Assembly (NCBI GenBank): GCA_963716135.1
Contig: OY970289.1
Coordinates: 3,256,274 to 3,320,273, forward strand
DNA length: 64,000 nucleotides
Source of the DNA: Pirellulales bacterium
GTDB lineage: Bacteria > Planctomycetota > Planctomycetia > Pirellulales > JADZDJ01
Reading direction: 5' to 3'
The notes beneath the pieces were generated by a model that saw only the letters and a program-made list of their open reading frames with translations, did not search any database and was not told where the DNA came from. Below, in pieces: positions 7,197 through 54,351 of the stretch. The first letter of the stretch is position 1. Each line of letters opens with the position of its first letter. Both the position numbers and the translations under genes were made by a program.

Positions 7197-7345
7197 GACG
7201 TCCAATTAAACGACGGGATAATGAGACGACGTCACACGCTGCGGTGTGACCTGCTCAGTGTGCCGCGAACGGACGACCTGTCCATTTTCGAGCAGCGGTC
7301 GCTGACCCCGAAGGGATCAGCGGTCCCAGAAAGTCGTGGTTTTGC
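7197..7345 (-). repeat. Rep-B repeat, copy 1 (inverted relative to copies 2 and 3)
   Basis: The reverse complement aligns by eye with 8515-8690 and 14650-14800 (..ggtcagcgaccgctgctcgaaaatggacaggtcgtcc..caccgcagcgtgtgac..ctcattatcccgtcgttt). It contains the perfect hairpin gtcacac-gctgcg-gtgtgac. Confidence 0.8.
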
Positions 7346-7592: not shown

Positions 7593-8546
7593 ATGATCAA
7601 ACTGGGCTTTGTGATTCTGTCGCATCGCTGTCCGGAGCAAACGCGGCGATTGATCGATCGACTGGTGACAATGTTCGATGGTCCGCCCATCGCTTGTCAC
7701 CACGATTTCAGCCAATCCCGCCTCGACGTTTGCGACCTTCCTGACACATTTCGCCTGGTGCAACCGCACCGGAAAACGGGATGGGCGGAATTTTCGATTG
7801 TTGAGGCCACTCTACTCGCTTTGCGTCTGCTGTATCAAACCGACCAGCCTCCGGATTGGTTTGCGGTGCTTAGTGGCGCCGATTATCCGATCAAACCCGC
7901 CGAGAAAATCCTGCAAGATTTGCAGGCGACGTCCGCTGATGCCCTAATGCGCTACCGATTGATCGACGGCAGCGCCCCGAGACCTACTTGGCAGCGGCAA
8001 CGCCTTCGCCGTTATCACCGCTGGGGTTGGCGGCTGCAGTTAGGCAAACCACCGCTGGGCTTTGAGAAAACATTCCGCCTGCCGTGGTACTTGTCAGGCC
8101 CGTTGCTGCCGTTTTCCAGAAAGTTTCGCTGCTTTGCCGGCTCGCATTTTTTCACGGCCAATGCCCGCTGCGCTGAACATTTGCTAGCAGCAACTCCGCA
8201 GCAGCGTCGGCTGGCGCGGCATTACGCCACGGTCTTTTGTCCGGAGGAATCGTTTTTTCAATGCCTGTTGTGCAATGCCCCGCAATTACGTGTTGTCAAC
8301 ACTTACTATCGGCATATCGATTGGAGCAATGGCGGTCCCCATCCCAAAACGTTGACATGCGACGATTTGCCGGAACTGACGGCTTCGCAGGCCCACTTCG
8401 CCAGAAAATTCGACATCCAACAAGATGCCGCGGTGCTGGACCGCCTGGACGAATTGATATTGCGCCCAGGCATTGCGATCGACGCCGGTGGTCTAGCAAA
8501 CTCTGGAGTCCGAAGGGTTCCTCAAACGGGACGGTATCATGAATGA
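7593..8546 (+). CDS. glycosyltransferase, core-2/I-branching (GT14)-like
   Basis: Start moved to MIKLGFVILSH, in frame with track ORF 7533-8546. The family call is from memory of the GT14 N-terminal pattern and LSGADYP, and has not been checked by search. Confidence 0.65.
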   Translation: MIKLGFVILSHRCPEQTRRLIDRLVTMFDGPPIACHHDFSQSRLDVCDLPDTFRLVQPHRKTGWAEFSIVEATLLALRLLYQTDQPPDWFAVLSGADYPIKPAEKILQDLQATSADALMRYRLIDGSAPRPTWQRQRLRRYHRWGWRLQLGKPPLGFEKTFRLPWYLSGPLLPFSRKFRCFAGSHFFTANARCAEHLLAATPQQRRLARHYATVFCPEESFFQCLLCNAPQLRVVNTYYRHIDWSNGGPHPKTLTCDDLPELTASQAHFARKFDIQQDAAVLDRLDELILRPGIAIDAGGLANSGVRRVPQTGRYHE

Positions 8547-8690
8547 TGACTTTCCGGTACCGCTGACGTCTCCCGGGTTAGCGACCGCTGCTCGAAAATG
8601 GACAGATCGTCCATTTGCGGCACACCGAGCGAGTCGCACCGCAGCGTGTCACCTCGTCTCATTATCCTGTCGTTTGTCGGAAATGTTAAG
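8515..8690 (+). repeat. Rep-B repeat, copy 2
   Basis: It overlaps the last codons of the GT14 gene. Roughly nine in ten positions match 14650-14820 by eye. Nested inverted repeats: gcgaccgctgctcg..tggac-agatc-gtcca..cgagcgagtcgc. Confidence 0.8.
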
Positions 8691-8702
8691 AAACCAACGA
8701 GT

Positions 8703-18893: not shown

Positions 18894-18928
18894 GATCGCG
18901 CCGGATCTATCTACTAGAGGAGAATAAT

Positions 18929-21354
18929 ATGTCAATCGACTTAATGGATCGCGACCACCAAACTCGCGGCGACGCTCTGGAATCGCTCAACGCGAACGGC
19001 CCACTCCCAGCCGATCTGCTTCGAAAAATTAACGCCTATTGGCGTGCCGCCAACTATGTTTCGGTCGGGCAGATTTATCTCTACGACAATCCACTGCTGA
19101 AGGAACCGCTGAAGCTGTCGCACGTGAAGCCGCTGGTGGTTGGCCACTGGGGCACGACGCCCGGGCAGAACTTCATCTACGTGCATTTGAATCGGGTCAT
19201 CAAGAAGTATGACCTGGACATGTTCTACATTGCAGGTCCTGGTCACGGCGGCCCGGCAATTGTGGGCAATGTTTACCTCGAAGGCACCTGGAGTGAAGTT
19301 TATCCGAACGTCACCCAGGACGAAGCGGGGATGAAGAAGCTGTTCAAGCAATTCTCCTTTCCCGGCGGGATTTCCAGCCATGTTGCGCCGACGACTCCCG
19401 GGTCGATTCATGAAGGTGGCGAGCTGGGGTATTCGCTCAGCCATGCCTTTGGGGCCGCGTTCGACAATCCCGATCTGATCGTCGCCTGCGTCGTCGGCGA
19501 CGGTGAAGCGGAAACAGGCCCCTTGGCGACCGCCTGGCAATCCAACAAACTTCTCGACCCCATTACTGATGGAGCCGTGCTGCCGATCCTGCACCTCAAT
19601 GGCTACAAGATCAGCAACCCAACCGTCCTGGCCCGCATCGAGCATGAGGAATTGGACCAATTTCTACGAGGCTGCGGCTGGACGCCCCTCTTTGTGGAAG
19701 GTGATGAGCCGGAAAAGATGCATCAACTGATGGCGGCCACGTTGGAAACCGCCATCGAGGACATCCGGCGAATTCAAAAGAATGCACGAAACAAGAACGA
19801 TACCACTCGGCCGCGCTGGCCAATGATCGTTCTCAAATCGCCCAAGGGCTGGACGGGACCAAAAGTCGTCGATGGTCTGCAAATCGAGGGCACCTTCCGT
19901 GCGCACCAAGTGCCGCTCTTGGTGGATCCCGAGCATCCCGATCATGTCAAGCTGCTTGAAAGCTGGATGAAAAGCTATAAGGCGGAAGAACTGTTCGATG
20001 CAAATGGACGTCTCATCTCGGAATTAGCCGAGCTGGCGCCGAAGGGCGACCGGCGTATGGGCGCGAATCCCCACGCCAACGGCGGCATTCTGCTACGCGA
20101 CCTGCGCATGCCAGACTTCCACATCCACGCGGTGAATGTGCCTTCGCCCGGCGCTGTTAAGGGCCAGGATACGCTGGTGCTGGGTCAGTTCCTGCGTGAC
20201 GTGGCCAAGCTGAATCAGGATCAGCGTAATTTCCGCGTCTTCGGTCCCGATGAGACACTTTCGAATCTCCTGGGCGCAGTGTTTGAAACAACCAATCGTC
20301 AGTGGGACGCGCAGCAAACAGAGCAACGACGAGTTCCTCGCGCCTGCCGGACGCGTGCTGGATTCGATGCTCAGCGAGCACCAGTGCGAGGGTTGGTTGG
20401 AAGGATATTTGCTGACCGGGCGGCACGGATTGTTCAACAGCTATGAGGCTTTCATTCGCATAGTCGACTCGATGTTCAGCCAGCATGCTAAATGGCTGAA
20501 GGTGTGTTTGGAATTGCCCTGGCGCCGGGAGATATCGTCGCTGAACTATCTGCTGGCCTCTCACGTTTGGCAGCAGGATCACAACGGCTTCACGCACCAG
20601 GATCCCGGCTTCCTTGACCACGTGATCAACAAGAAGGCCGACATCGTGCGCGTGTACCTTCCGCCCGATGCCAATTGCCTGCTGTCGGTTTTTGATCACT
20701 GCTTGCGCAGCCGAAACTACGTCAACGTGGTGGTGGCCGGCAAACACGCCCTGCCGCAATGGCTGACTATGGATGCGGCGGTGGTGCACTGCACGGAAGG
20801 CATTGGCATTTGGCAATGGGCTAGCAACGATCAGAACTCCGAGCCGGACGTGGTAATGGCCTGCTGCGGAGATACGCCCACGCTGGAGATTCTGGCCGCC
20901 GTTTCCATTCTGCGCGCAGCAGCTGCCCGATCTGAAAATTCGGGTGGTCAACGTCGTCGATCTGATGAAGCTGCAATCGGCCAGCGAGCACCCGCACGGA
21001 CTGAGCGAAGCGGATTACGACTCGCTCTTCACCAGAGACAAACACATTATTTTCGGCTTTCATGGCTACCCGTGGCTGGTCCACCGACTGACCTACCGCC
21101 GGACCAACCGTAACCTCCACGTTCGGGGCTACAAGGAAGAGGGCACCATTACAACCGCCTTCGACATGCGAGTTCAGAATGACCTGGACCGATTCCACTT
21201 GGTGCAAGACGTCGTAGATCGCCTGCCGAATCTGGGCGCGAAGGGCGCCTACCTGAAGCAGATGGTGCAGGACAAGCTGATTGAGCACAAGCACTACATC
21301 GACGAGCACGGCCAAGATTTGCCCGAGATCCGCAACTGGAAATGGAAAGGATGA
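18929..21354 (+). CDS. xfp: phosphoketolase (xylulose-5-P/fructose-6-P), reading frame interrupted twice as given
   Basis: The ATG at 18929 follows agaggag. Motifs are [16 protein letters not shown] and GDGEAETG. The protein continues in ORF 20250-21113 ([18 protein letters not shown]) and ORF 20944-21354 ([18 protein letters not shown]). The shifts are near 20300-20325 and 20908-20925. Confidence 0.9.
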
Positions 21355-29305: not shown

Positions 29306-29475
29306 CCAAAAATCTTCGTTTCCTGAGGCTCGCAGCAGGGCCAGATCTGCGGTAAGTCACCGCCGCGCATCATTCCGAGAATACGGATGGGTTTCCAGGG
29401 CGCTAAGACCGTCCCGTCAAACCAATGAGTTTCTGACGCAGGCAGCGTGAAGCGCCGTCTGTCGGTCGATTCTCC
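29306..29475 (+). repeat. Rep-C repeat, copy 1
   Basis: ..ggctcgcagcagggccagatc..aagtcaccgccgcgcatcattccgagaatacggatgggtttccagg..caaaccaatgagtttctgacgcaggcagcg.. matches 50171-50335 at roughly nine in ten positions by eye. Confidence 0.8.
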
Positions 29476-29665
29476 CATCCACAAATTCATTGCACCGCCT
29501 CCAGGGACTGGTATACTGACTGATGTTCGCCGCTGGACTTGCTTCTTGGCGACGAACGTAAGCCCCACGCTGCGGAAGTCTCCAAGCGAAATTATCTGCG
29601 GCGCGGGGCTTCTCTATGCGCTGCTAAAATCACCCTGCCGCCGCGTGGGGAGCGATTTTCATATC

Positions 29666-29757
29666 ATTGAGTTCCCGACGCGCAGCCTCGGTCTCATAAA
29701 CACGGTGGTTTAACAAAGCGTCCCGCAATTGACGAGTTGCTGAGACGAATTCGGCGG
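29666..29757 (+). repeat. Rep-A-related modules
   Basis: gagttcccgacgcgcagcctcggtctcataaacacgg matches 41770-41800. gtttaacaaagcgtcccgcaattgacgagttgctgagacgaattcggcgg matches 61795-61845. Confidence 0.7.
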
Positions 29758-41363: not shown

Positions 41364-41710
41364 AAGATGAGAAAGCACACGTTCAAGAGGTGCAAGAGTG
41401 ATTCGTCGCGTATGTTTAACGCTATTTATGCCCGGATCCATCTCGGCTGTGGGCCGCAAGCAGAGCATTCCGCCAACGGACCTGAGGACCGGCAGCGACA
41501 TGTTGCCCTGAAACCGATTGGCAGCGCACCCGAGGCCGAAGGCAAAGCCACTAAGGTTGAACCGCAGAAGGTCATGCTCCGATTGCCCAAATACAGGCGG
41601 GCACTCCGGGCGAAAGTCCAGTTACCGTCGCGAACACGGCGATTGTCTCGAGGAACATGCGCGAGACTGGCAGGAATCTGAAAAACATTCGTTTTTCGAC
41701 GCGACCACAG

Positions 41711-41890
41711 GAGCGAATTCTGCGGCTCAGCCGAACTAATCGGCCAGTGTCATCAAACGGTTGAGTATCCGGGGCGCGATCTCTGTCTCATAAACACGGC
41801 TTCATAGTCGCATGACTTCCCGGGCGCGAAATCCGTCCCGAAAACTCGGTCGTTTTTTTGGACAATTGAGAAACGGGTAGGTTGTTGAGA
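41711..41890 (+). repeat. Rep-A repeat, full copy with internally duplicated middle module
   Basis: gagcgaattctgcggctcagcc..cagtgtcatcaaacggttgagtatccggggcgcgatctctgtctcataaacacgg..gacttcccgggcgcgaaatccgtcccgaaaactcggtcgtttttttggacaattgagaaacgggtaggttgttgagac. Confidence 0.8.
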
Positions 41891-41926
41891 CAAAGGTTCC
41901 GAGATAAGCATTTAAACAGCCGTTTA

Positions 41927-46126: not shown

Positions 46127-46141
46127 GGCCGGCTTCCCTGT

Positions 46142-46181
46142 GTACTACCGTGATAGTACAGAGTCTCTGTACGCCCGTCAA
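46142..46181 (-). promoter_or_regulatory. sigma70-like promoter with two overlapping palindromic operators upstream of the GntR gene
   Basis: Sense strand: TTGACG-17nt-TACTAT. Palindromes GTACAGAG-A-CTCTGTAC and GTACTA-TCACGG-TAGTAC overlap the spacer and the -10. Confidence 0.6.
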
Positions 46182-46227
46182 GCAAATGGTTTAAAAAAAC
46201 CGCAAGCCGAGGAGGCAGTATGCCATG

Positions 46228-46347
46228 CTGCTCAGCCGGGACCAACTTGCCAGTGTTATCAAACACTTACGTTCCCGGCGCGCGACCTCTGTCCCAAATA
46301 AGGGGTCGTTTGACGGGTCAATCGAGAAACGGTCGAGTTGATGCGAC
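46228..46347 (+). repeat. Rep-A repeat, 3' two-thirds
   Basis: gctcagccgggaccaacttgccagtgttatcaaacacttacgttcccggcgcgcgacctctgtcccaaataaggggtcgtttgacgggtcaatcgagaaacggtcgagttgatgcgac. Confidence 0.75.
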
Positions 46348-46387: not shown

Positions 46388-46645
46388 CTATGAGGAAAAT
46401 TTCTGGCGGCCTTTGATTCTTGCGCGAACGCGGCGGACTCGGAGAATTCGCCGGACCGAACCGTAAGCGCCTAGGACGACACAGGCGGTACCGATGACAA
46501 AGTAGCCATACTTCGCAACCATGGGGTTTCCTTGGATTCCAAAACGCCTTCCCCAGTGGATATTGGGTACGAAGAAAGGCAAAAGCATCATCCCGAGCGA
46601 GAGCAGGAAGAACACGTAAATGAACGGGATTGGCCGCAGGCGCAT
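46388..46645 (-). CDS. array gene 1: small 2-TM protein with Arg-rich tail
   Basis: MRLRPIPFIYVFFLLSLGMMLLPFF..YFVIGTACVVLGAYG..RRILRVRRVRARIKGRQ. The start was moved to the ATG that follows the junction element. Confidence 0.5.
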   Translation of the reverse strand: MRLRPIPFIYVFFLLSLGMMLLPFFVPNIHWGRRFGIQGNPMVAKYGYFVIGTACVVLGAYGSVRRILRVRRVRARIKGRQKFSS

Positions 46646-46680
46646 GATGTAGCCGCTGGGCACGGATTCTAATCGCCGGT
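46646..46680 (-). promoter_or_regulatory. junction element (JE), short variant
   Basis: Sense: GATTAGAATCCGTGCCCAGCGGCTACATCATG. Confidence 0.5.
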
Positions 46681-46707
46681 AGTAGGTCAGTCTAATTCCG
46701 AGAATTT

Positions 46708-46980
46708 TTAGTGGTGATGCTCAGACCACCAAGCTGCGATACCGAGCAGCGCCAGCGTTCCGACGAATATGGCACAATGGATGAAACATAACTTCCGCTC
46801 TCGAAGGCCTTTCTCAGTGAGGTCATCTGGGCGAAATAAATACGTCATCGGATTTTCTCTGTCGCCGGGCCAATAGGGTAATCCTGGTTTTCTGTTCGCC
46901 ACCGCACGGCTGGCGTAGGATACTGCTTGTAGCGAGCTGAGAAAAAACATAACAAAAAGTATTGCGTCAATCTTCGGCAT
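46708..46980 (-). CDS. array gene 2: small 2-TM protein
   Basis: MPKIDAILFVMFFLSSLQAV..CFIHCAIFVGTLALLGIAAWW. ATG at 46980, after the JE. Confidence 0.5.
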   Translation of the reverse strand: MPKIDAILFVMFFLSSLQAVSYASRAVANRKPGLPYWPGDRENPMTYLFRPDDLTEKGLRERKLCFIHCAIFVGTLALLGIAAWWSEHHH

Positions 46981-47033
46981 CGGATTGCCCGCATTGTACG
47001 TGATGGGCGAGGGAAGTTGAGCGGGCTGCCGGA
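46981..47033 (-). promoter_or_regulatory. junction element (JE), short variant
   Basis: Sense, from the upstream stop: TAATCCGGCAGCCCGCTCAACTTCCCTCGCCCATCACGTACAATGCGGGCAATCCGATG. Confidence 0.55.
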
Positions 47034-47222
47034 TTAGAGAAAGCCACGAACCACCACGCCACAAAACATTGTCAACATGCCACCGCCGAGCAAATACAGA
47101 CTTGGCAGGCGGCTCAGTTCGGTGTTCGGCGGCCAGTCCATGCGACCGAAAAATACGATTGCCGCATAGGCGCTAACTAGCATTCCTAGGACCATTACGG
47201 CAGTTGCCAATTTCTTCGACAT
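47034..47222 (-). CDS. array gene 3: 62-aa 2-TM protein
   Basis: MSKKLATAVMVLGMLVSAYAAIVFF..LYLLGGGMLTMFCGVVVRGFL. ATG at 47222 after GGGGGAGAAATGAA. Confidence 0.5.
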   Translation of the reverse strand: MSKKLATAVMVLGMLVSAYAAIVFFGRMDWPPNTELSRLPSLYLLGGGMLTMFCGVVVRGFL

Positions 47223-47327
47223 TTCATTTCTCCCCCACGCGGCGGCAGGGTAATTGCAGCCGATTGCTAGTCGGCCTATTCGAGGGTCGTGGTGCATTAT
47301 CTGTGGGGAAGTTGAGCAAGCCGGTTT
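47223..47327 (-). promoter_or_regulatory. junction element (JE), long variant with a ~45-nt insertion
   Basis: Sense: GCTCAACTTCCCC..GCCGACTAGCAATCGGCTGCAATTACCCTGCCGCCGCGTGGGGGAGAAATGAAATG. Confidence 0.6.
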
Positions 47328-47714
47328 TCACCCAAGCGGCGGCTTCGGGCGGAACAGACGAAATAAGAGCCATGTAAAAAGAATGGACACGAGTAATTGC
47401 AACACACCCCACAGCGCCTGATTCTGCTCGGTCTGGTTTGCTGAGCTAATCGCCGCGTTGACACCGGCAAACAGCATCACCAACAGAAAACCGCTCGCGC
47501 CCGCCCGCATCATCCACGATGCCTGAGCTTTATACGAAGAGCAATAGTGAACGGCCACGCCCGCAGTAAGCAAGCACCATGCAGCAAAGCCGCTGAGGAC
47601 CGTTAAAAGATTTATGACCGCTTTCGGAGTCGAAGTATCCACTTGACTTGTCAAATGGATCTGACAACCAGATATGGTCCCAATGAGGACGGCAATGGCG
47701 ATGCTTTTTCTCAT
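47328..47714 (-). CDS. array gene 4: lipoprotein-signal membrane protein
   Basis: MRKSIAIAVLIGTISGC lipobox, then three hydrophobic segments. Confidence 0.55.
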   Translation of the reverse strand: MRKSIAIAVLIGTISGCQIHLTSQVDTSTPKAVINLLTVLSGFAAWCLLTAGVAVHYCSSYKAQASWMMRAGASGFLLVMLFAGVNAAISSANQTEQNQALWGVLQLLVSILFTWLLFRLFRPKPPLG

Positions 47715-47794
47715 GGCTCTCCCCACGCGGCCATCTCCGCATTATAGCCGACGGGCACGGGGGATGAGGCGGGGCGGTGGGTAGTATCGCTGCG
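47715..47794 (-). promoter_or_regulatory. junction element (JE)
   Basis: Sense: CTCATCCCCCGTGCCCGTCGGCTATAATGCGGAGATGGCCGCGTGGGGAGAGCCATG. Confidence 0.6.
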
Positions 47795-47953
47795 TTAAGG
47801 CGACCGACCACGTTCGATGATCGCGTTGGCGATGATGCCACCGGCGATAAGGACAGACCCCGAAATGCCCAGCGACCAGTAGGGATTGAATGGATTCGCC
47901 AGAAAGCAAATCAGACCCACCACAATCGATACGTTCGCAAAAACTTTCGTCAT
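47795..47953 (-). CDS. array gene 5: 52-aa 2-TM protein (below the ORF-track size cut-off)
   Basis: My translation gives MTKVFANVSIVVGLICFLANPFNPYWSLGISGSVLIAGGIIANAIIERGRSP*. It sits exactly between two JE copies. Confidence 0.45.
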   Translation of the reverse strand: MTKVFANVSIVVGLICFLANPFNPYWSLGISGSVLIAGGIIANAIIERGRSP

Positions 47954-48043
47954 GGCTCCGAACTCCTGAATGTGCCACGCGGCGGCAGGGTGTGATTGTA
48001 GCCGATGGGCGGCATATGCCTTATCAGTGCCGTTGCTGCCCCG
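47954..48043 (-). promoter_or_regulatory. junction element (JE), long variant
   Basis: Sense: GCCGCCCATCGGCTACAATCACACCCTGCCGCCGCGTGGCACATTCAGGAGTTCGGAGCCATG. Confidence 0.6.
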
Positions 48044-48244
48044 TTATTGTCGGCGCTGCCAGCGGGCCAAAGCAATTAAGCCGCCAATCACCGAAAAATA
48101 AAGGGCAGCAATCACTGCGTTGAATAGGTGTACTGAAACGTCCGGCAACTCGTTGTAAATGAGGGACATTATTAGACCGACGCAGGCCCCAATTGAGGCC
48201 GCACAGAGAACAATCCATCCGGCGAATTTTGGTTTGCTATTCAT
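48044..48244 (-). CDS. array gene 6: 66-aa 2-TM protein
   Basis: MNSKPKFAGWIVLCAASIGACVGLIMSLIY..LFNAVIAALYFSVIGGLIALARWQRRQ. Confidence 0.5.
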   Translation of the reverse strand: MNSKPKFAGWIVLCAASIGACVGLIMSLIYNELPDVSVHLFNAVIAALYFSVIGGLIALARWQRRQ

Positions 48245-48314
48245 TACACCGTCCCCCACGCGGCGGCAGCGTGATTATAGCGGACGGCGAAAGGCACGAG
48301 AGTTGAGCGGTCGG
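48245..48314 (-). promoter_or_regulatory. junction element (JE), long variant, fills the whole intergenic gap
   Basis: Sense, from the upstream stop: TGACCGACCGCTCAACTCTCGTGCCTTTCGCCGTCCGCTATAATCACGCTGCCGCCGCGTGGGGGACGGTGTAATG. Confidence 0.65.
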
Positions 48315-48602
48315 TCATTGCTTTAAGCCATGCCGCTTTGCCCATTCCTCATTCCAGCCGTAAATCTTTACGTGAGAAACTTCGTGCACTTCGTATGGCT
48401 GATCCTTGAGCTTAGATTCGGTAAGTTCATTACGTCCTGCGGTCGGTGAAAACAAGTGTATATGCGGGCAGTCGTTTTTGAGTAGCTGGTCACGGAGCAC
48501 GTTGAGTTCGCTCAACAGTAGCTCTACGCCCGCAAGGTCGGCGTGGACGGATACCATTGAGCCCGTCTCGTCCGTAACAAAGCTAAGTAAGTGATTGGCC
48601 AT
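48315..48602 (-). CDS. array gene 7: 95-aa soluble protein, possibly immunity-protein-like
   Basis: MANHLLSFVTDETGSMVSVHADLAGVELLLSELNVLRDQLLKNDCPHIHLFSPTAGRNELTES.. has no TM segment. The HIHL..G..EL pattern reminds me of a polymorphic-toxin immunity family, from memory and unverified. Confidence 0.5.
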   Translation of the reverse strand: MANHLLSFVTDETGSMVSVHADLAGVELLLSELNVLRDQLLKNDCPHIHLFSPTAGRNELTESKLKDQPYEVHEVSHVKIYGWNEEWAKRHGLKQ

Positions 48603-48650
48603 TGTTTCCTCCCCACGCGGCGGCAGGGTGATTGTAGCTGGGGGGCGATT
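48603..48650 (-). promoter_or_regulatory. junction element (JE), long variant
   Basis: Sense: CCCCCCAGCTACAATCACCCTGCCGCCGCGTGGGGAGGAAACAATG. Confidence 0.65.
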
Positions 48651-48811
48651 TCGCTGCCATTTTCTATTATGGCCCGCGCTCCTGGCAAAGCGGCTGATCC
48701 GTTATCGGAAGTGATTCTTCCATTCAATCTCAGAGTCTGGATCGACCTTATCGGGCGGACCACCAGACACTAGATAACGCAACGAGTCTGCTGATCTGAT
48801 TCCAATGCCCG

Positions 48812-49183
48812 TCAGGCGATTTTTGTGGAAGAGTAGAACCAAAAACCAGTTCGTTGCACCAAATTCGTACGGGTTTGGATGATAGATACGGCGTTGTCTT
48901 CATCTAAATTGTATTCAATCCGCGTCAAAGGCGAGCCGCTACATAGAGCATCGATCTTACTAGCACACTCTAAGTAATTCATCCCAAGGCCAACTTCTCT
49001 GGATGCAATCAATAGTTCAGTTCGGTGAGCGAGTTGGCTCGCAAGTCGGCGCGTTTGTAAGTAGAGAAAAGCTGTGATGCAAAACCAAAATAACAGGCCA
49101 GCATATAGAAGAAGTTTGCCTCGAGAGGTCACGATGCGTCTTAGCGGTGTATGCGTCAGTTTTCTATACCCGCTGATTCTCAT
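48812..49183 (-). CDS. array gene 8: N-terminally anchored hypothetical protein
   Basis: 123 aa with TM segment LLLYAGLLFWFCITAFLYL followed by a soluble domain. Confidence 0.45.
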   Translation of the reverse strand: MRISGYRKLTHTPLRRIVTSRGKLLLYAGLLFWFCITAFLYLQTRRLASQLAHRTELLIASREVGLGMNYLECASKIDALCSGSPLTRIEYNLDEDNAVSIIQTRTNLVQRTGFWFYSSTKIA

Positions 49184-49289
49184 GCATCACCAGCGCCCGC
49201 AGGTAATTAGGGGCTTTGCCCGGCACATCTCATTTGCCCGACAATTTTTGCGGCTGCCCGGAATAATCAACGGGCTCAGTTGAGCGAGT
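49184..49289 (-). promoter_or_regulatory. junction element (JE), degenerate
   Basis: Sense: TAGACTCGCTCAACTGAGCCC...CCTAATTACCTGCGGGCGCTGGTGATGCATG. It keeps the GCTCAACT box and a weak AATTACCTGCGG core. Confidence 0.35.
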
Positions 49290-49631
49290 CTAATCGGAAG
49301 GTTTTTCAGAGACACTCGCGTTTATGCGTTCCAGGTACCACATGCCGTGCCAATCGAACGTTGGTAGCTTCTGAATGACGAGTGGTGATAAACCAGCCGC
49401 CTCAACCTCTTCCCATTGGGGCAATGTAAGGCCATCTGTCGCGTATTTGAATGGATCAATGTCTCCATCGACAAGCTTGTAATCTAAAGGCAACGGAACC
49501 GGCTGAGTTACTGTGCAGCCCCAGCAAAATCCCGCGATTCTCCCGGAGGGCAAGCACTTCACTAAGGCGATTTCCACGCCACATCCAATAGGGCACTTGG
49601 CGTCGATGATGCAGACTTGTTGCGAGTCCAT
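49290..49631 (-). CDS. array gene 9: 113-aa Cys-rich soluble protein
   Basis: MDSQQVCIIDAKCPIGCGVEIALVKCLPSGRIAGFCWGC.. ATG at 49631, directly after the JE. Confidence 0.45.
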   Translation of the reverse strand: MDSQQVCIIDAKCPIGCGVEIALVKCLPSGRIAGFCWGCTVTQPVPLPLDYKLVDGDIDPFKYATDGLTLPQWEEVEAAGLSPLVIQKLPTFDWHGMWYLERINASVSEKPSD

Positions 49632-49675
49632 CACCGCATTGTAGCCGATGGGCACGGGAGTTGAGCGGGCTGCTC
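49632..49675 (-). promoter_or_regulatory. junction element (JE), short variant, fills the whole 44-nt gap
   Basis: Sense: TGAGAGCAGCCCGCTCAACTCCCGTGCCCATCGGCTACAATGCGGTGATG. Confidence 0.65.
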
Positions 49676-50059
49676 TCAAGTGTCCAGATGCCACGTATGA
49701 TCTTTGCTTTCATAGAACAGCGTGAATGCGTCTTTGCCGTAATCGCCGATTTGGAGCTCGAACGAGATTCCACTATTTCTAAGGATGTTGTATCTCCATC
49801 CTCCATACAGGGCCTTTGGAAGAACGATGTTGGCGTCTGACAGATTGTCCGGATAAGCGCCGTTCTTTACTTTGTAGGACTCGATTTGAGCAACAATCTT
49901 ATCCCCTTCGGATCGAAGCTGGCTCAGAACGACATCGCTGGGACGGTCAGGGAAAGCGTCCAAGATGGGAGCCACGTACATCTTCCATCCAAGTATCAGC
50001 ACCGCTACCAGCGCCACTGCGCTTCCCAGTATGACGATATTGCGGCGAGTACGTGGCAT
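49676..50059 (-). CDS. array gene 10: N-terminally anchored hypothetical protein
   Basis: MPRTRRNIVILGSAVALVAVLILGW.. then a soluble domain. The upstream 57 codons of track ORF 49676-50230 lie in the JE and Rep-C and are not coding. Confidence 0.5.
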   Translation of the reverse strand: MPRTRRNIVILGSAVALVAVLILGWKMYVAPILDAFPDRPSDVVLSQLRSEGDKIVAQIESYKVKNGAYPDNLSDANIVLPKALYGGWRYNILRNSGISFELQIGDYGKDAFTLFYESKDHTWHLDT

Positions 50060-50140
50060 GCTGCTTTGAATGTATCGTTTCCTCCCCATGCGACGGCAGG
50101 GTAATTCTAGCCGACGGACAGCGGCACGAGAAATTAGAGG
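50060..50140 (-). promoter_or_regulatory. junction element (JE), long variant
   Basis: Sense: CTAATTTCTCGTGCCGCTGTCCGTCGGCTAGAATTACCCTGCCGTCGCATGGGGAGGAAACGATACATTCAAAGCAGCATG. Confidence 0.6.
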
Positions 50141-50170
50141 CTTCCGGCGCGCATACAGCGTCCCAAAAAC

Positions 50171-50362
50171 CTTCCTTTTCTGCGGCTCGCAACAGGGCCA
50201 GATCGGCAGCAAGTCACCGCCGCGCATCATTCCGAGAATACGGATGGGTTTCCAGGACGCTAAGACTGTCCCATCAAACCAATGAGTTTCTGACGCAGGC
50301 AGCGAGAAGCGTCATCTATCGGTCGTTTATTTGGACAGTCGAAAACGGATCGAGTTGATGCG
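50171..50362 (+). repeat. Rep-C repeat copy 2, followed by the Rep-A tail module
   Basis: Matches 29306-29475. It ends with cggtcgtttatttggacagtcgaaaacggatcgagttgatgcgac, as at 46300-46347. Confidence 0.8.
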
Positions 50363-50385
50363 ACCGCGGCACGCGCTACGCCGCC

Positions 50386-50590
50386 TGTGCGGCGACGAGT
50401 GCCGAAAAAGGAACCGTTTCTAAATTGTCCATCGGACGGTAAATTAAACGGCTCGGGGCTCCCTCCTCAATCCGCCGGCCCAAGCCATCGTAGGCGTAGG
50501 TGATTTCACTGGTGGCGCCATCTTTTTGCTCCACCAGCCGGTTCCACGACTTGTGTCAGCTCATTCTGGGCATCATAGCTGCGCAACCCC
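50386..50590 (-). pseudogene. RHS/YD-repeat protein remnant
   Basis: My translation gives RSYDAQNELTQVVEPAGGAK, then a shift in an A5 run, then DGATSEITYAYDGLGRRIEEG... These are YD-repeat signatures without the rest of an rhs gene. Confidence 0.55.
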
Positions 50591-50597
50591 GGCGATT

Positions 50598-51020
50598 TTA
50601 GTGATTATCTAGCCGCTCGCATGCTTGCCTATCTGGCTGTGGAATGCTTGCAAGCGACGGAAATTTTTGCACCTCGCCCGATGTGATTTTTAGTACGACA
50701 TATGTCCCATCACTTGTAACAAAGTAGGCGTTGCCGTCACCTTTTCTCCAGTTCACTACTCGATCCGCGATAGTTTGTTGTTTTTGAAGGTCAAAAAGCA
50801 GAAGTTCAGAGGATAGCGGATCGGTATCGAATCGCCAAGATTTCAGCACTTGAAAACGCCCATCGCCAAAATAGTCTCGTGTATCTTTACCGATTCCGTG
50901 TCGTAGTTTCTCGTTGCAGCCCAACATCGCGAGCAACGTGATGCCCAAAATGCTGTGTGCAAATTCCTTGTGCAACGTGAACCTGAACACTCTCAGCAAC
51001 TCCTGTCCGGCCCAAGCCAT
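50598..51020 (-). CDS. array gene 11: putative lipoprotein
   Basis: MAWAGQELLRVFRFTLHKEFAHSILGITLLAMLGCNEK... Its first codons overlap a second YD-repeat scrap read in another frame, so the start is uncertain. Confidence 0.4.
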   Translation of the reverse strand: MAWAGQELLRVFRFTLHKEFAHSILGITLLAMLGCNEKLRHGIGKDTRDYFGDGRFQVLKSWRFDTDPLSSELLLFDLQKQQTIADRVVNWRKGDGNAYFVTSDGTYVVLKITSGEVQKFPSLASIPQPDRQACERLDNH

Positions 51021-51065
51021 CGTAGGCGTAGGCGACTTCACTGCACTGCTTGACCAAAGCGTCGT

Positions 51066-51398
51066 TCAGGACATTTCTCGTAATAAGTACAGATAGTTCA
51101 TCACAGTGATTATCAGTTCAGCACTGACTGCCATAGTAACAACAAGAGATCGAAACGTGCTCTTTTCCGGAAAAAGCTTTGGCCATCCATTCCGCCAAAC
51201 GTCCAAGATGAATCCCAAAGTAGCTCCGAGTACGGCGAAATGAACAATATTCAACACATGCCGGCAGGATTCGGCGAAACGATTGCGCGCCTCAATATCT
51301 ACCGTGGGAATCGAATACCCGATTACGATACCGAGTATTAGCCCGAAGAAAACGATGCCGCGTCCATATTGCATAAATTCTTGCTCGTTGCTGGCCAT
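51066..51398 (-). CDS. array gene 12: 110-aa 3-TM protein
   Basis: GIVFFGLILGIVIGY, IVHFAVLGATLGFIL and LVVTMAVSAELIITV. Confidence 0.5.
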   Translation of the reverse strand: MASNEQEFMQYGRGIVFFGLILGIVIGYSIPTVDIEARNRFAESCRHVLNIVHFAVLGATLGFILDVWRNGWPKLFPEKSTFRSLVVTMAVSAELIITVMNYLYLLREMS

Positions 51399-51426
51399 CT
51401 CACATCTGAACCATCACTAATAGTTT

Positions 51427-52029
51427 TTATTCCTTCATTTCTGGGTCGGGCAACTGCTGGTTTGGCGATTTTTTCTCAAACTCTGATTGTCGAATGACTA
51501 TTGCTTCTGGATAAGTCCTTTTTAGCTCAGCGATTGCCGCCTCCGACTCTGTGTCGTCTAGCACGAACAAATCGTATTCCACATCTCCCAGCCAACGGCG
51601 AAACAACGGTATCTTACCTCGGTTCATGTTACCTGCGCTCACAAACACCGAGTGATATGAATGCCATGTTCGTTCGCGACTGTTTACAATTTGAAATTGT
51701 TGCGCACCAAATAATGCTCCTGCAGCCAGTATGGCGATTATCAACAACAGAGACAATTTACGATAACGTGCGATTGTCGTAGTCAGATCGCCCGATAACC
51801 GGCGGATACCTTTAAAGGCTGATCGCCTTATCATCCATGCGAAAACAACAAACAGTCCCAAAGCCCCCCCAAGCACTGCGCCCATGCTAAGGCCGTTGCT
51901 AATTGCGGGCGCACGAAAAAATGGGCCTAGAATCAATGCCCCAAGAGCAGCCCCAACCATCGCAGCGATGAGTACTGGCAAAACAGTTGGATATTTCGTG
52001 GCAACCGATGAGTCTGGATTTTGAACCAT
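51427..52029 (-). CDS. array gene 13: 200-aa membrane protein with C-terminal soluble domain
   Basis: Three or four Gly/Ala-rich TM segments, then ..VEYDLFVLDDTESEAAIAELKRTYPEAIVIR. Confidence 0.5.
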   Translation of the reverse strand: MVQNPDSSVATKYPTVLPVLIAAMVGAALGALILGPFFRAPAISNGLSMGAVLGGALGLFVVFAWMIRRSAFKGIRRLSGDLTTTIARYRKLSLLLIIAILAAGALFGAQQFQIVNSRERTWHSYHSVFVSAGNMNRGKIPLFRRWLGDVEYDLFVLDDTESEAAIAELKRTYPEAIVIRQSEFEKKSPNQQLPDPEMKE

Positions 52030-52040
52030 TTAGAACACGA

Positions 52041-52424
52041 TTATTTATCCCAGACGACAACTGTATTGTGTGTAGAAAACCATTCTAACAAGTTGCTGTT
52101 CATCCTAGGTCCTAGACGCGTTGGATCTAGGTTCCTCAGTGCGGTTTTTCCCAAGTCTTGCGGCAGTCGAACGTATTTCTGCCAAAAGGGCTGTCCAAAG
52201 AAAGAACGCTCAATCGTCTGGACGTTACTTCCATCGCACGTGAGGGTGCCCTCGGTCAACAGTTCCCGCTCCGAATCGTCTTTTAGTGCGTAGATCGCGT
52301 AGTCGAGCGAGTCTTCCCTCGCCGAATTCGCACAGCCGATCTGGGCGAGCAAAAGAACAACTAACGTGGGTAGGACTCGCGGGTACACAATTTGCCAAAA
52401 TGATCGAGTCAACAATTGAGCCAT
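52041..52424 (-). CDS. array gene 14: lipoprotein
   Basis: MAQLLTRSFWQIVYPRVLPTLVVLLLAQIGCANS lipobox. Only 11 nt separate it from gene 13. Confidence 0.5.
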   Translation of the reverse strand: MAQLLTRSFWQIVYPRVLPTLVVLLLAQIGCANSAREDSLDYAIYALKDDSERELLTEGTLTCDGSNVQTIERSFFGQPFWQKYVRLPQDLGKTALRNLDPTRLGPRMNSNLLEWFSTHNTVVVWDK

Positions 52425-52503
52425 CAGTTGCAGACACAAGTTCGAAGTGATTGTAGCGGGTTGATCAAGCTACAGCGAAGCACGCTGCGGGCGGGGCAGT
52501 GGG
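52425..52503 (-). promoter_or_regulatory. -10 core of the junction element upstream of genes 14-11
   Basis: Sense: TTGATCAACCCGCTACAATCACTTCGAACTTGTGTCTGCAACTGATG. It shares GCTACAATCAC with the JE copies but not the flanks. Confidence 0.4.
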
Positions 52504-53418
52504 TCAGTTTTCCAATTTGAAATGTCGCCGAAGTTCGGATGAATAAACCGTGCCGACTTCAGGTTTGTTGAATTCGAGCCAGTCAGAAAAACGCGTTGCA
52601 CCATTCGGTGCTTGATCGGAAGTCAACAGGCCATCCATAAGACCTTGGAGTTCATCGCGAGTCAAAATTACATCGCCGAGGGCCAGCCCGATGAGTCGGC
52701 CCATGGCGATGCCGACGGCCGGTGGCATTCGCATAAGTTTTGCCTTGGGTTTAATCTTGGAGGCAATGAACTGGACGAACTCCTGAAAGGTAAACACTTC
52801 CGGACCAATGGCGTCGAGAATAGTTGATTCCTCATCCTGAGCGCGCGCCACCGCTAGGGCTGCTACATCCTCCACAAACACGGGCTGCACCCGGTACTTG
52901 CCGGATCCAAAAATCGGAAAAAATGGGAACTTGCGAATTAGCCAGGCGATATTGTTCACCAAGATATCTTCTTTGCCGAAGACCAGCGTGGGTCGAACGA
53001 TGCTGTACGGCACGCCCGAGTTGACCAGAGCGTCTTCCTGAAGTCCCTTTCCCGCATAGTAGGGCAGGCGCGACTGTGGAGAAGCGTGCGTCACACTGAT
53101 ATGGACGATTTTCCGGATCCCGGCGTTCTTGGCGCAGTCGAACAGCGTGGCGGTATTGTTGACGGCTTGACGAAAAGTAGCCCCACCATATTCGAAGCGA
53201 ATCCAATAGGTGTTGTACAGCGTCGAAGCGCCGCGCAGATTGGCCGTCAATTCATCCGGCCTGTCGAAGTTGTAGGGAAACGCTTTTACGGCATTTCCAA
53301 AGGGATTGGGTTTGTTGGGATGGGTGGTGATCGTCGTCACCTGCTCTTCCTGCTGGAGCAGGCAACGGGCGATGTACTTCCCGATATAGCCGAATGCCCC
53401 TGTAACAACACTTGCCAT
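52504..53418 (-). CDS. NAD(P)-binding NmrA/NDUFA9-like atypical SDR
   Basis: VVTGAFGYIGKYIA Rossmann motif, 304 aa. Confidence 0.8.
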   Translation of the reverse strand: MASVVTGAFGYIGKYIARCLLQQEEQVTTITTHPNKPNPFGNAVKAFPYNFDRPDELTANLRGASTLYNTYWIRFEYGGATFRQAVNNTATLFDCAKNAGIRKIVHISVTHASPQSRLPYYAGKGLQEDALVNSGVPYSIVRPTLVFGKEDILVNNIAWLIRKFPFFPIFGSGKYRVQPVFVEDVAALAVARAQDEESTILDAIGPEVFTFQEFVQFIASKIKPKAKLMRMPPAVGIAMGRLIGLALGDVILTRDELQGLMDGLLTSDQAPNGATRFSDWLEFNKPEVGTVYSSELRRHFKLEN

Positions 53419-53424
53419 ATCAGC

Positions 53425-53512
53425 ATTAGACGATTGAGTTCCCGGCGCGCGAAGTCTGTCTCAAAAACCGGGTCCTTTTGTGGGACAACCGAGAATCGGC
53501 TGAGTTTCTAGA
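53425..53512 (+). repeat. Rep-A repeat, 3' half
   Basis: gattgagttcccggcgcgcgaagtctgtctcaaaaaccgggtccttttgtgggacaaccgagaatcggctgagtttctag. Confidence 0.7.
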
Positions 53513-53536
53513 ACGATAAGTGGGCGCGACACGGCC

Positions 53537-54184: not shown

Positions 54185-54275
54185 GACCGTATCCTTAAGA
54201 AGCTAAGTGCGCCGCCCCTAATTTAACTGACGACTACTGGCGCGTCTATTCACTCATGATCTGATAACGCCGGGC

Positions 54276-54351
54276 CGGTGTCGTCTAACGCTTGGGTTCC
54301 CGGTACGCAACCGCCGTCTCAGAAACCGGGTGGTTTGTTGGGATAGTTACG
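54276..54351 (+). repeat. Rep-A repeat, degenerate 3' half
   Basis: gtcgtctaacgcttgggttcccggtacgcaaccgccgtctcagaaaccgggtggtttgttgggatagttacgg. Confidence 0.5.

What the first reader, a model, noticed from the sequence alone, without database searches (positions are those of the whole stretch)
46646..50140. Conserved junction element immediately upstream of ten consecutive array genes, and of one gene 12 kb away
Read on the gene strand, the gaps share the following layout:
- A GCTCAACTyyC box right after the previous stop codon.
- CGTGCC, then 3-8 nt, then CGGCTAyAAT.
- After that, one of two endings. The long variant is CAC-CCTGCCGCCGCGTGGGGAGG plus 4-25 nt to the ATG (genes 3, 5, 6, 7, 10, and partly gene 4). 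The short variant is GCGG plus 1-11 nt to the ATG (genes 2 and 9, and partly gene 1).

In two cases the element is the entire intergenic region, 44 nt and 70 nt. TAyAAT looks like a -10 box. The same TACAATCA motif occurs upstream of the ECF sigma gene, but I find no consistent -35 in the JE copies. In contrast, the GntR and BlaI promoters in this window have canonical TTGAC-17-TAnnAT. So the flanks are conserved well beyond what a promoter needs. The element also carries the Shine-Dalgarno sequence. It could be a shared activator-dependent or alternative-sigma promoter plus leader. It could equally be the scar of a recombination mechanism that assembles cassettes.
Basis: seen in the sequence. 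Interest (0 to 1): 0.72.

Follow-up and report, generated by a model that had tools for sequence, protein, structure and literature searches.

The report
Repeated promoter module before island genes
A 45-75-base sequence repeated in front of almost every gene of a ten-gene island in a planctomycete genome is most likely a copied promoter-plus-translation-start module, so each small unrelated gene would be its own transcription unit; the same module heads small genes in related soil bacteria.

Summary
Ten co-oriented small genes (window 50059-46388, minus strand) are mutually unrelated, yet eight or nine are preceded by one element. Its layout is GCTCAACT-yCCGTGCC-(3-10 nt)-CGGC-TAYAAT, followed by one of two endings. 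The short ending is GCGGnG-ATG. The long ending is yACCCTGCCGCCGCGTGGGGAGG plus 5-25 nt to the ATG.

No copy shows a hairpin, covariation or an Rfam match. No recombinase lies in the 64 kb, so an attC-like site or a structured RNA is not supported.

Three features fit a -10-only promoter fused to either a leaderless start or a short Shine-Dalgarno leader. The element always points at the downstream start codon. The hexamer is its most conserved part. In the short form the ATG lies exactly 6 nt after the hexamer, and this holds in many independent metagenome copies.

The family recurs in other islands of related soil planctomycetes with different gene sets. Two near-identical assemblies of this array keep the same gene order. 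Their break points lie in a different dispersed repeat, not in the element.

This is a new variant of 'propagated promoter' families. How the copies spread is unknown.

The parts
50081..50140 (-). Junction element before gene A, long form: CCTCTAATTTCTCGTGCC...CGGC-TAGAAT-TACCCTGCCGTCGCATGGGGAGG. The hexamer is at 50109-50104.
   Evidence: (nhmmer E = 4.5e-12)
49632..49675 (-). Junction element before gene B, short form. It is the entire 44-nt intergenic region. TACAAT lies at 49643-49638, then GCGGTG, then the ATG at 49631 (leaderless geometry).
   Evidence: (E = 3.4e-12)
49184..49289 (-). Junction before gene C. It has the GCTCAACT box (49285-49278), a GGGCA triple-repeat module, and only a degraded core (CTAATTACCTGCGGGCGCTGG).
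   Evidence: similarity to L010 9282-9337
48603..48650 (-). Junction element before gene D, long form: TACAAT 48636-48631, then CACCCTGCCGCCGCGTGGGGAGGAAACA, then the ATG. It has no GCTCAACT box.
   Evidence: E = 7.5e-12
48245..48314 (-). Junction element before gene E, long form. It is the entire 70-nt intergenic region. TATAAT lies at 48279-48274.
47954..48020 (-). Junction element before gene F, long form with a 2-nt insertion and a diverged end. TACAAT lies at 48000-47995.
   Evidence: E = 4e-8
47715..47775 (-). Junction element before gene G, a chimaera. It has a short-form start (TATAAT 47746-47741, then GCGGAG-ATG) joined to a long-form end (GCCGCGTGGGGAGAGCC, then the ATG).
47223..47327 (-). 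Junction before gene H. The GCTCAACTTCC box lies at 47317-47307, followed by a 48-nt insert and then the long-form core with TGCAAT at 47258-47253.
46981..47033 (-). Junction element before gene I, short form. It is the entire 53-nt intergenic region. TACAAT lies at 46998-46993, and the ATG follows 12 nt later.
   Evidence: (E = 5.8e-8)
46646..46680 (-). Degenerate copy before gene J: CCGTGCCCAGCGGC-TACATC, abutting the ATG.
   Evidence: E = 0.21
62536..62590 (-). Diverged copy 12 kb away, about 50 nt upstream of a 202-aa gene (62484-61876) that precedes BlaI/BlaR1 genes: GCTCAACTCGC...CGGC-TATAGT-CACTCTGTCGCCGC.
   Evidence: E = 0.003; 49 nt, 84% to E. It is absent upstream of the 89%-identical homologue in L001.
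29619..29653 (+). Orphan long-form copy on the opposite strand with no gene downstream. It sits between two other dispersed repeats.
   Evidence: E = 4.6e-11
46388..50059 (-). The ten co-oriented small genes A-J (52-128 aa). They are mutually unrelated, and most are predicted membrane or secreted proteins with no family assignment.
50163..50364 (.). Copy of an unrelated dispersed repeat at the upstream end of the array unit. Other assemblies break here: L009 starts at 50172, and L002 homology ends at 50182.
46226..46347 (.). Copy of the same unrelated dispersed repeat family at the downstream end of the array unit. L009 ends at 46334.

Best explanation
The junction element is a propagated promoter plus translation-start module. 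Each copy supplies a sigma-70-type -10 hexamer (TAYAAT) preceded by a conserved block of about 35 nt (GCTCAACTyCCGTGCC...CCCATCGGC) and lacks a canonical -35.

In the short form the start codon lies 6 nt after the hexamer. Transcription would then begin at the A of the ATG and give a leaderless mRNA.

In the long form, transcription would begin about 7 nt into CACCCTGCC. The resulting 20-40-nt leader carries the Shine-Dalgarno GGGGAGG.

Each small gene of the island would thus be an autonomous transcription unit. All of them could be co-regulated through the shared flanks, for example through the near-palindrome GCCCATCGGC next to the hexamer.

Shown: the anatomy, the orientation, the spacing regularity, the absence of hairpins, and the recurrence of the element in other genomes. 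Inferred: that RNA polymerase starts there, which sigma factor or regulator acts, and that copies spread by recombination or gene conversion between copies.
For: (1) Orientation and position. All 11 gene-linked copies point at and end at a start codon. Three junctions (44, 53 and 70 nt) consist of nothing else.

(2) The hexamer is the best-conserved block when the copies are lined up on it; a free MAFFT alignment is noisier, with 32% mean column identity. The genome also uses TTGACG-17-TACTAT at the GntR gene (sequence).

(3) Leaderless geometry. TAnAAT-N6-7-ATG occurs only twice in the 64 kb, both times in the array. L010 has TACAAT/TATAAT-GCGGGG-ATG at five or more sites. Among metagenome copies selected only on CCCNTCGGCTAYAATGCGG, 13 of 39 have an ATG 5-7 nt after the hexamer against about 1.8 expected, p = 1.4e-8. 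Ten of the 13 open ORFs of 69 codons or more (one of them, L049, runs off its contig without a stop codon), one opens a 34-codon ORF, and two open ORFs of only 5-7 codons. A Pirellulales genome bin (L016) has tandem small membrane-protein genes with CTACAAT 6-7 nt before the ATG.

(4) The long form ends in GGGGAGG 5-9 nt before the ATG in D, E, G and H.

(5) The element belongs to the island, not to the gene. Homologues of D elsewhere lack it, and so does the 89%-identical homologue of the far gene.

(6) The same family heads other small genes in related contigs L010, L044, L068 and L079.

(7) An unrelated planctomycete island (L004/L005) has its own repeated junction sharing only TGGTACAATGCGG, that is the -10 plus discriminator.

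(8) Repeat-embedded promoters ending in ...CTACAAT are documented in type II-C CRISPR repeats (PMC5965381).
Against: - No transcription start has been mapped.
- There is no consistent -35. The GCTCAAC box sits 16-17 nt from the hexamer in B, G and I, but 22-23 nt away in A, E and the far copy, and about 60 nt away in H. It therefore cannot play one fixed promoter role.
- H has TGCAAT, which loses the critical A at -11. J has TACATC touching the ATG. Some copies are therefore probably dead or read through from upstream.
- The 22-nt block CCCTGCCGCCGCGTGGGGAGG is conserved far beyond what a Shine-Dalgarno needs and remains unexplained.
- Pairwise similarity narrowly misses the published threshold for propagated promoters.
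- In L010 several conserved ATGs are out of frame with the called genes. That contig comes from an error-prone long-read assembly, so this is inconclusive.
Confidence: 0.6

Rival explanations
1. The element is a recombination site. It would mark the boundaries of mobile gene cassettes, like an integron attC or another site-specific recombinase target, and the array would be built by cassette capture.
For: - The locus is an array of small co-oriented unrelated ORFs with lower GC (0.51-0.55 against 0.58-0.60) and a repeat at every junction.
- GCTCAAC fits the attC R'' consensus RYYYAAC (sequence).
- Element-plus-gene units occur in different combinations in different genomes. Homologues of G have different neighbours in the window, L010 and L044.
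- G's element is a chimaera of the short and long forms.
- The contig of L002 ends inside element E.
Against: - There is no inverted-repeat partner (GTTRRRY) and no hairpin. ssDNA and RNA folds on both strands have z-scores between -1.3 and +1.4.
- A 44-nt junction is too short for an attC.
- The element faces the downstream gene and includes its ribosome site or ATG.
- No tyrosine or serine recombinase lies in the 64 kb or consistently in the other loci.
- Two other assemblies keep the identical gene order at 98.6-99.3% identity, and their break points lie in a different repeat family.
Confidence: 0.1
2. The element is a regulon signature. It would be the cognate promoter of an alternative (ECF-type) sigma factor, or the operator of a dedicated regulator, and its flanks would be conserved because a specific protein reads them.
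For: - Conservation extends from about -50 to +25 around the presumed start, roughly the footprint of RNA polymerase.
- The near-palindrome GCCCATCGGC abuts the hexamer, and it is the perfect palindrome GCCGATCGGC in one L044 copy.
- A diverged copy lies about 190 nt upstream of an ECF sigma gene inside the L010 island. A Sigma70_r2 gene lies near the L004 island.
- A GGGCA triple-repeat module lies upstream of several copies.
Against: - The motif does not resemble known ECF promoters (AAC at -35, CGT at -10 with a 16-17 nt spacer).
- The hexamer is a textbook housekeeping -10.
- The spacing of the upstream box varies by half a helical turn.
- No sigma-factor or regulator gene adjoins the array in the window. 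The nearest ECF gene is 32 kb away and its upstream region shares only TACAATCA.
Confidence: 0.2
3. The element is a structured RNA leader, such as a thermosensor, riboswitch or sRNA target. It would control translation of each gene within a polycistronic transcript.
For: - A small hairpin can be drawn in the long form, either CCCUGC/GUGGGG or CACnC/GnGUG.
- E (CACGC...GCGTG) and L044 (CACCC...GGGTG) each repair the C-C mismatch on a different side.
- C-rich stretches upstream can pair with the GGGGAGG.
Against: - Fold energies do not differ from shuffled sequence.
- The consensus fold is -1.1 kcal/mol, with 3 pairs and no compensatory change.
- Rfam gives nothing even at E <= 1.
- The short form has no room for any structure.
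Confidence: 0.05
4. The element is a selfish or neutral dispersed repeat (REP- or MITE-like) that happens to sit between genes and has no role in expression.
For: - The genome is rich in other dispersed intergenic repeats.
- One orphan copy has no gene behind it.
- The far copy is missing from a close relative.
Against: - There are no terminal inverted repeats or palindromes.
- Orientation and distance relative to start codons are strict in the window and in independent metagenome copies.
- The Shine-Dalgarno or the ATG is part of the repeat.
- The leader stays conserved with homologues of G at 67% protein identity.
Confidence: 0.05

Closest known systems
Putative mobile promoters ('promoter propagation in prokaryotes', Matus-Garcia et al. 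2012, PMC3488235)
   Same: Near-identical upstream sequences sit in front of non-homologous genes within one genome, with non-homologous genes upstream as well. Families are specific to a species or lineage and differ between close relatives.
   Different: - The published families are scattered, whereas here the copies stand at consecutive junctions of one array.
- The best pairwise alignments (32-49 nt, 79-88%) fall just under the published cut-off of 50 nt at 80%.
- The module here includes the translation start (a leaderless ATG or a Shine-Dalgarno).
Integron gene-cassette arrays with attC sites
   Same: Both are arrays of small, co-oriented, unrelated, mostly uncharacterised ORFs with a lineage-specific repeat at each junction and a lower GC content.
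   Different: - There is no integrase.
- There is no attC hairpin.
- The repeat belongs to the 5' end of the next gene and carries promoter and ribosome-site features, whereas integron cassettes are mostly promoterless.
- No cassette-level variation was seen between the three near-identical assemblies.
Recombinase-associated acquired interbacterial defence clusters (rAID-1) of Bacteroidales (bioRxiv 10.1101/471110)
   Same: Both are co-oriented arrays of small genes with skewed GC and repetitive intergenic sequences. Fragments of an Rhs/YD toxin gene lie next to the array (window 50376-51057).
   Different: - There is no XerD-like recombinase at the head of the array.
- No array protein matches an immunity family.
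- The phylum is different.
Repeat-embedded promoters of type II-C CRISPR arrays (N. meningitidis; reviewed in PMC5965381)
   Same: A repeat ending in ...CTACAAT acts as a -10 promoter, so every unit of the array is transcribed on its own. Two metagenome CRISPR arrays found in passing even share the 15-mer CCCATCGGCTAYAAT at the repeat end.
   Different: - Those arrays have 36-nt repeats with 30-nt spacers that make guide RNAs. Here the units are protein genes of 160-390 nt.
- The 15-mer identity was forced by my search pattern and is not evidence of common descent.
Leaderless-mRNA promoters of Actinobacteria and Deinococcus (for example PMC4007540, PMC4633059)
   Same: A -10 TAnnnT lies about 6-7 nt before the start codon, there is no Shine-Dalgarno, and the genes are often small.
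   Different: Those promoters share only the hexamer. Here about 35 nt upstream and the GCGGGG discriminator are conserved between unrelated genes and between genomes.

Membership tests
Integron / attC cassette array | An IntI-type tyrosine recombinase gene adjacent to the array | tested here: not met
   Pfam scans of all large ORFs in the 64 kb found no integrase or recombinase. A cluster of attC sites without an integrase would still need attC sites.
Integron / attC cassette array | A junction repeat that is an imperfect inverted repeat (R''-L''...L'-R') folding into a hairpin as single-stranded DNA | tested here: not met
   DNA folds of four junctions on both strands gave z-scores from -0.9 to +1.4. 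GCTCAAC fits RYYYAAC but no GTTRRRY partner exists. One junction is only 44 nt long.
Integron / attC cassette array | Small co-oriented unrelated ORFs, one per repeat | tested here: met
rAID-1 (Bacteroidales) | A XerD-like recombinase at the 5' end of the cluster | tested here: not met
   Upstream of gene A lie a dispersed repeat, Rhs fragments, small ORFs and an epimerase, and no recombinase.
rAID-1 (Bacteroidales) | Two or more co-oriented genes with skewed (lower) GC and repetitive intergenic sequences | tested here: met
   GC is 0.51-0.55 in 46-50 kb against 0.58-0.60 elsewhere. Repeats.
rAID-1 (Bacteroidales) | Genes homologous to toxin-immunity genes | tested here: inconclusive
   There are no Pfam, NCBIfam, PADLOC or PHROG assignments. 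A confident model of D (pLDDT 92) has no PDB neighbour. Absence of hits does not exclude immunity functions.
Putative mobile promoters (PMC3488235) | Upstream regions aligning over at least 50 nt at 80% identity or more | tested here: not met
   The best pair in the window is E against the far copy, 49 nt at 83.7%. The other pairs are 32-48 nt at 79-88%. This is a narrow miss of an operational threshold.
Putative mobile promoters (PMC3488235) | Downstream and upstream coding sequences not homologous | tested here: met
   All-against-all blastp and blastn found nothing below E = 0.03.
Sigma-70-type promoter | A -10 hexamer TAnnnT | tested here: met
   This holds in 9 of 11 gene-linked copies. 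The exceptions are H (TGCAAT) and J (TACATC).
Sigma-70-type promoter | A -35 hexamer like TTGACA, 16-18 nt upstream | tested here: not met
   The consensus scan finds it only for D (ATGGCA-18-TACAAT). The anchored alignment shows no common -35.
Sigma-70-type promoter | Primary transcript 5' ends about 7 nt downstream of the hexamer | not testable with these tools
   No transcriptome data are available.
Leaderless-mRNA promoter | A start codon 5-7 nt downstream of the -10 hexamer, opening a real ORF | tested here: met
   - Gene B (113 codons), with a 7-codon mini-ORF at G.
- 13 of 39 independent metagenome copies, p = 1.4e-8.
- L016 and L079.
- This applies to the short form only.
REP / MITE-type repeat | A palindromic body or terminal inverted repeats | tested here: not met
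   No inverted repeats lie within or around the copies.
Known structured RNA (Rfam) | A match to a curated covariance model, or covariation supporting a fold | tested here: not met
   Rfam gave 0 hits at gathering score and at E <= 1. The consensus fold showed no covariation.

The most novel reading that the evidence does not exclude
The unit 'element plus ORF' is a genuine mobile cassette. Soil Pirellulales-like planctomycetes would then possess a promoter-carrying gene-capture system. It would be functionally analogous to integrons or rAID clusters but would use a different junction and an unidentified recombination route, either homologous exchange between elements or an unknown recombinase. 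The islands would be banks of small membrane or immunity-type proteins, each expressed on its own.
Probability: 0.15. Interest if true: 0.8.

Novelty: new variant of a known kind. Interest (0 to 1): 0.5.

Why it matters
If each junction is a working promoter, the island is a string of independently transcribed small genes of unknown function that share one control sequence. Promoters and leaderless translation are almost uncharacterised in planctomycetes, so this would be a compact handle on them.

The family also gives a sequence tag for finding such small-gene islands in metagenomes. The same tag links islands with different gene contents. That makes it directly testable how new small genes acquire expression signals, and whether these arrays are assembled cassette by cassette.

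Tried and rejected
- Source genome not retrievable. Two look-ups of exact window proteins failed. The long-form pattern AATYACNCTGCCGCCGCGTGGGG found nothing in the genome or the metagenome collection.
- RNA structure rejected. Ten single folds had z-scores between -1.3 and +0.8, and the consensus fold was negligible.
- attC-like ssDNA hairpin rejected.
- Rfam gave nothing, and the window has no tRNA genes.
- Gene function is unknown. Pfam, NCBIfam, PHROGs and PADLOC on all ten proteins gave nothing usable. A structure model of D (pLDDT 92.2) has no PDB neighbour at E < 3.
- The idea that the element belongs to gene D or to the far gene is rejected. Their homologues elsewhere lack it.
- The genome-collection scan with GGCTAYAATGCGGGGATG gave 28 single hits spread over many phyla, mostly chance. 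Only the Pirellulales bin L016 was informative.
- I considered the GCTCAAC box as a -35. This is rejected as a general role because its spacing falls into two or three classes.
- I considered a link to the neighbouring dispersed repeats. They share only short motifs with the element and form a separate family.
- A literature search found no description of such arrays in planctomycetes.

Full report
**What is there**

The region 46388-50059 holds ten co-oriented genes on the minus strand, A to J, of 52-128 codons. None has a Pfam, NCBIfam, PHROG or PADLOC assignment. Several are small proteins with hydrophobic stretches. All-against-all blastp and blastn find no similarity among them. GC is 0.51-0.55 here against 0.58-0.60 in most of the window.

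The surrounding genes point to a planctomycete. They include a PF07638 ECF sigma factor, BlaI/BlaR1 and serine/threonine kinases. Homologues of window genes sit next to PSCyt/PSD1/DUF1501 genes.

Anchoring the junctions on the TAYAAT hexamer gives a continuous element: (GGCAGCCC)GCTCAACT-yCCGTGCC-(3-10 nt)-(CAT)CGGC-TAYAAT, followed by one of two endings.

- The short ending is GCGGnG-ATG (B, the first half of G, and I with 12 nt).
- The long ending is yACCCTGCCGCCGCGTGGGGAGG followed by 5-25 nt to the ATG (A, D, E, F, H, and the second half of G).

Motif counts are far above chance:

- All four exact GCTCAACTYYC matches are in the array.
- CGTGCC-N3-10-CGGCTANAAT gives 3 matches against 0.00 expected.
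- The 19-mer of the long ending gives 5 matches against 0.06 expected.

Profile HMMs built from the copies find nothing else in the 64 kb, with two exceptions. One is the weak copy at 62536-62590. It has no gene behind it.

Junctions B (44 nt), I (53 nt) and E (70 nt) consist of the element alone. C and J are degraded. Pairwise similarity of the upstream regions is 32-49 nt at 79-88%.

**What it is not**

- It is not a structured RNA. Single-sequence RNA folds are no more stable than shuffles, with z-scores from -1.3 to +0.8. The consensus fold is -1.1 kcal/mol with three pairs and no compensatory change. Rfam finds nothing at gathering score or at E <= 1.
- It is not an attC-like site. Folding whole junctions as DNA on both strands gives z-scores near 0, and no inverted repeats surround the copies. 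GCTCAAC fits the attC R'' consensus, but there is no R' partner.
- No integrase, recombinase or transposase adjoins the array. The only transposase trace in the window is an IS110 fragment at about 15.9-16.4 kb.

**Evidence from other sequences**

The source genome could not be fetched, but relatives could.

1. *The element is not tied to particular genes.* The 202-aa gene behind the far copy has an 89%-identical homologue on contig L001. Its upstream region is unrelated and lacks the element. Homologues of D are widespread singletons without it.
2. *The array is stable in near-identical genomes.* One ENA metagenome assembly (ERZ25039533) holds two near-identical copies of the array.
   - L009 is a 3.8-kb contig equal to window 50172-46334 at 98.6% identity, with the same ten genes in the same order.
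   - L002 carries A-D at 99.3% identity but has a wholly different upstream flank. It matches the window only up to 50182.
   - Both ends of this unit fall inside copies of a different, modular dispersed repeat family (50163-50364 and 46226-46347).
   - At this scale the variable unit is therefore the whole array, and the break points are not in the junction element.
3. *The element occurs in a second island.* Contig L010 from the same metagenome carries a 67%-identical homologue of G. It is related to the source, sharing the dispersed repeats and a 91%-identical IS110 fragment. It has four long-form and at least five short-form copies before other small genes.
4. *The family is widespread in other environmental metagenomes.* A scan of JGI metagenomes with CCCNTCGGCTAYAATGCGG returned 42 loci.
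   - About a dozen copies carry the extended consensus CCG-CCCATCGGCTACAAT-GCGGG(G)(N)-ATG.
   - Several contigs hold two to five copies in tandem arrays of small genes: L044, L068, L069, L064 and L079.
   - L044 includes the CCCGCTCAACT box and another homologue of G with different neighbours.
5. *A different island uses a different repeat.* A GC-richer planctomycete-like contig (L004/L005) has an island of a dozen small genes with its own repeated junction. It shares with ours only (TGG)TACAATGCGG, the -10 plus discriminator.

**How it most likely works**

The element always faces the next gene and ends at its start codon. Its best-conserved block is a textbook -10 hexamer. The organism demonstrably uses such hexamers: TTGACG-17-TACTAT lies before the GntR gene at 46127-46180 (sequence).

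In the short form the ATG follows the hexamer by exactly 6 nt, which places the A of the ATG at the canonical +1. In the window this arrangement occurs only at B and G. Among the metagenome copies, which were selected without reference to an ATG, 13 of 39 distinct non-CRISPR copies have an ATG 5-7 nt after the hexamer. About 1.8 would be expected (binomial p = 1.4e-8). Ten of the 13 open ORFs of 69 codons or more (one of them, on contig L049, runs off the contig end without a stop codon), one opens a 34-codon ORF, and two open ORFs of only 5-7 codons. A Pirellulales bin shows the same arrangement at two consecutive junctions.

In the long form the conserved block ends in GGGGAGG at Shine-Dalgarno distance from the ATG. 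I therefore read the element as a promoter fused either to a leaderless start or to a short leader. Each gene would then be its own transcription unit.

Several points count against this reading or remain open:

- No 5' ends have been mapped.
- There is no common -35.
- The GCTCAAC box stands at two or three different distances from the hexamer.
- H (TGCAAT) and J (TACATC-ATG) look defective.
- The 22-nt long-form block is conserved beyond any known need.

The near-palindrome GCCCATCGGC next to the hexamer could be an operator. A diverged copy before an ECF sigma gene in L010 could point to an alternative sigma factor. Neither was testable here.

**How the copies spread**

The genes are unrelated while the elements are 80-90% identical. 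The leader stays with homologues of G at 67% protein identity. G's element in the window is a chimaera of the short and long forms. Islands in different genomes combine different genes behind the same element.

This fits 'promoter propagation' (PMC3488235), with exchange between copies. Element-plus-gene could be a heritable module. No mechanism is shown.

**Comparison with known systems**

- *Putative mobile promoters* are the closest concept. The array narrowly fails their operational threshold and differs in being arrayed.
- *Integron cassettes and rAID-1 clusters* (bioRxiv 10.1101/471110) share the architecture of small co-oriented low-GC genes with junction repeats. The defining recombinase and, for integrons, the attC hairpin were tested and are absent.
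- *Type II-C CRISPR repeats* embed a -10 promoter ending in CTACAAT in every repeat (PMC5965381). That is a functional analogy only.

**Verdict**

The feature is real. It is most likely a propagated promoter and translation-start module of small-gene islands in soil planctomycetes. The recombination-scar reading is not supported. It is a new variant of a known kind and of moderate interest.

Noticed in passing
window 2506-2641, 7165-7342, 8509-8694, 14642-14844, 15881-15920, 29306-29471, 29666-29754, 41682-41891, 46226-46347, 50163-50364, 53407-53514, 54265-54344, 61794-61840, 62611-62682, 63289-63439: A modular dispersed intergenic repeat family of 40-210 nt, with motifs GTCyCAnAAAnnnGGTCGTTT and TTGAGTTCCCGGCGCGCG. 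It is unrelated to the junction element, has no Rfam match, and is also present in the related contigs L001 and L010. Copies flank the array and coincide with the break points seen in other assemblies.
   Followed up: partly
L002 534-3782 (ENA ERZ25039533 contig_46205): Thirty tRNA genes packed in one 3.3-kb array on one strand, 4.6 kb from a near-identical copy of genes A-D. The window itself has no tRNA gene.
   Followed up: no
window 50376-50534 and 50887-51057 (minus strand): Fragments of an Rhs/YD-repeat gene (YAYDGLGR), including a 37-nt stretch duplicated at 95% identity. They lie just upstream of the array and are followed by further small ORFs (50598-52439) that lack the element. This may be a decayed polymorphic-toxin locus.
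   Followed up: no
window 49200-49270; L010 2463-2510, 3483-3527, 9283-9340, 10410-10465, 11537-11581, 14037-14085; L044 700-880: A second junction module made of three spaced GGGCA(A/G) boxes (TTCGGGCAGnC...TTTCCGGGCAAA...TTGCCGGGCAAAGCC). It sits directly upstream of some element cores, and in L044 it occurs as an inverted pair. It looks like an array of protein-binding sites.
   Followed up: no
L072 4474-6688 and L052 4029-6300 (JGI metagenome contigs); also L059: CRISPR arrays with 36-nt repeats and a 66-nt period, 32-34 units long. The repeats are GTTGCGGCTGGACCCCAGTTTCCCATCGGCTACAAT and ...GTTTCCCCATCGGCTATAAT. They end in the same 15-mer as the junction-element core and resemble type II-C repeats with embedded promoters. 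The 15-mer match was forced by the search pattern.
   Followed up: partly
L010 6585-6650: A diverged copy of the junction element (GCTCAACGTCCCGTGCC...TATAAC...TACCCTGTGGGCCGCCTGGGG) lies about 190 nt upstream of an ECF-type sigma factor gene inside the L010 island.
   Followed up: no
L004 8350-10460 and L005 180-10920: Another planctomycete-like island of a dozen or more small genes has its own two-part repeated junction: GGCTTCCGGGCGTTTTGAAGTGGAAGGGGCAGGGG and CTTGCCGGGTGGTACAATGCGGCGAGTGGCCGGGC. It is flanked by transposase, primase and excisionase-type genes. Two identical homologues of D lie 11 kb apart in inverted orientation.
   Followed up: partly
window 18716-21113 and 15881-17281: The phosphoketolase gene is split into two overlapping ORFs, from a frameshift or an assembly error. 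The acetate kinase ORF is fused at its N-terminus to an IS110-type transposase fragment that is 91% identical to one in L010.
   Followed up: no
window 47734-47711; L010 2566-2586: A mini-ORF of 6-7 codons starts at the leaderless-type ATG, and its TGA overlaps the real start codon (ATGA). This is seen before G in the window and before one L010 gene. It may be chance.
   Followed up: no
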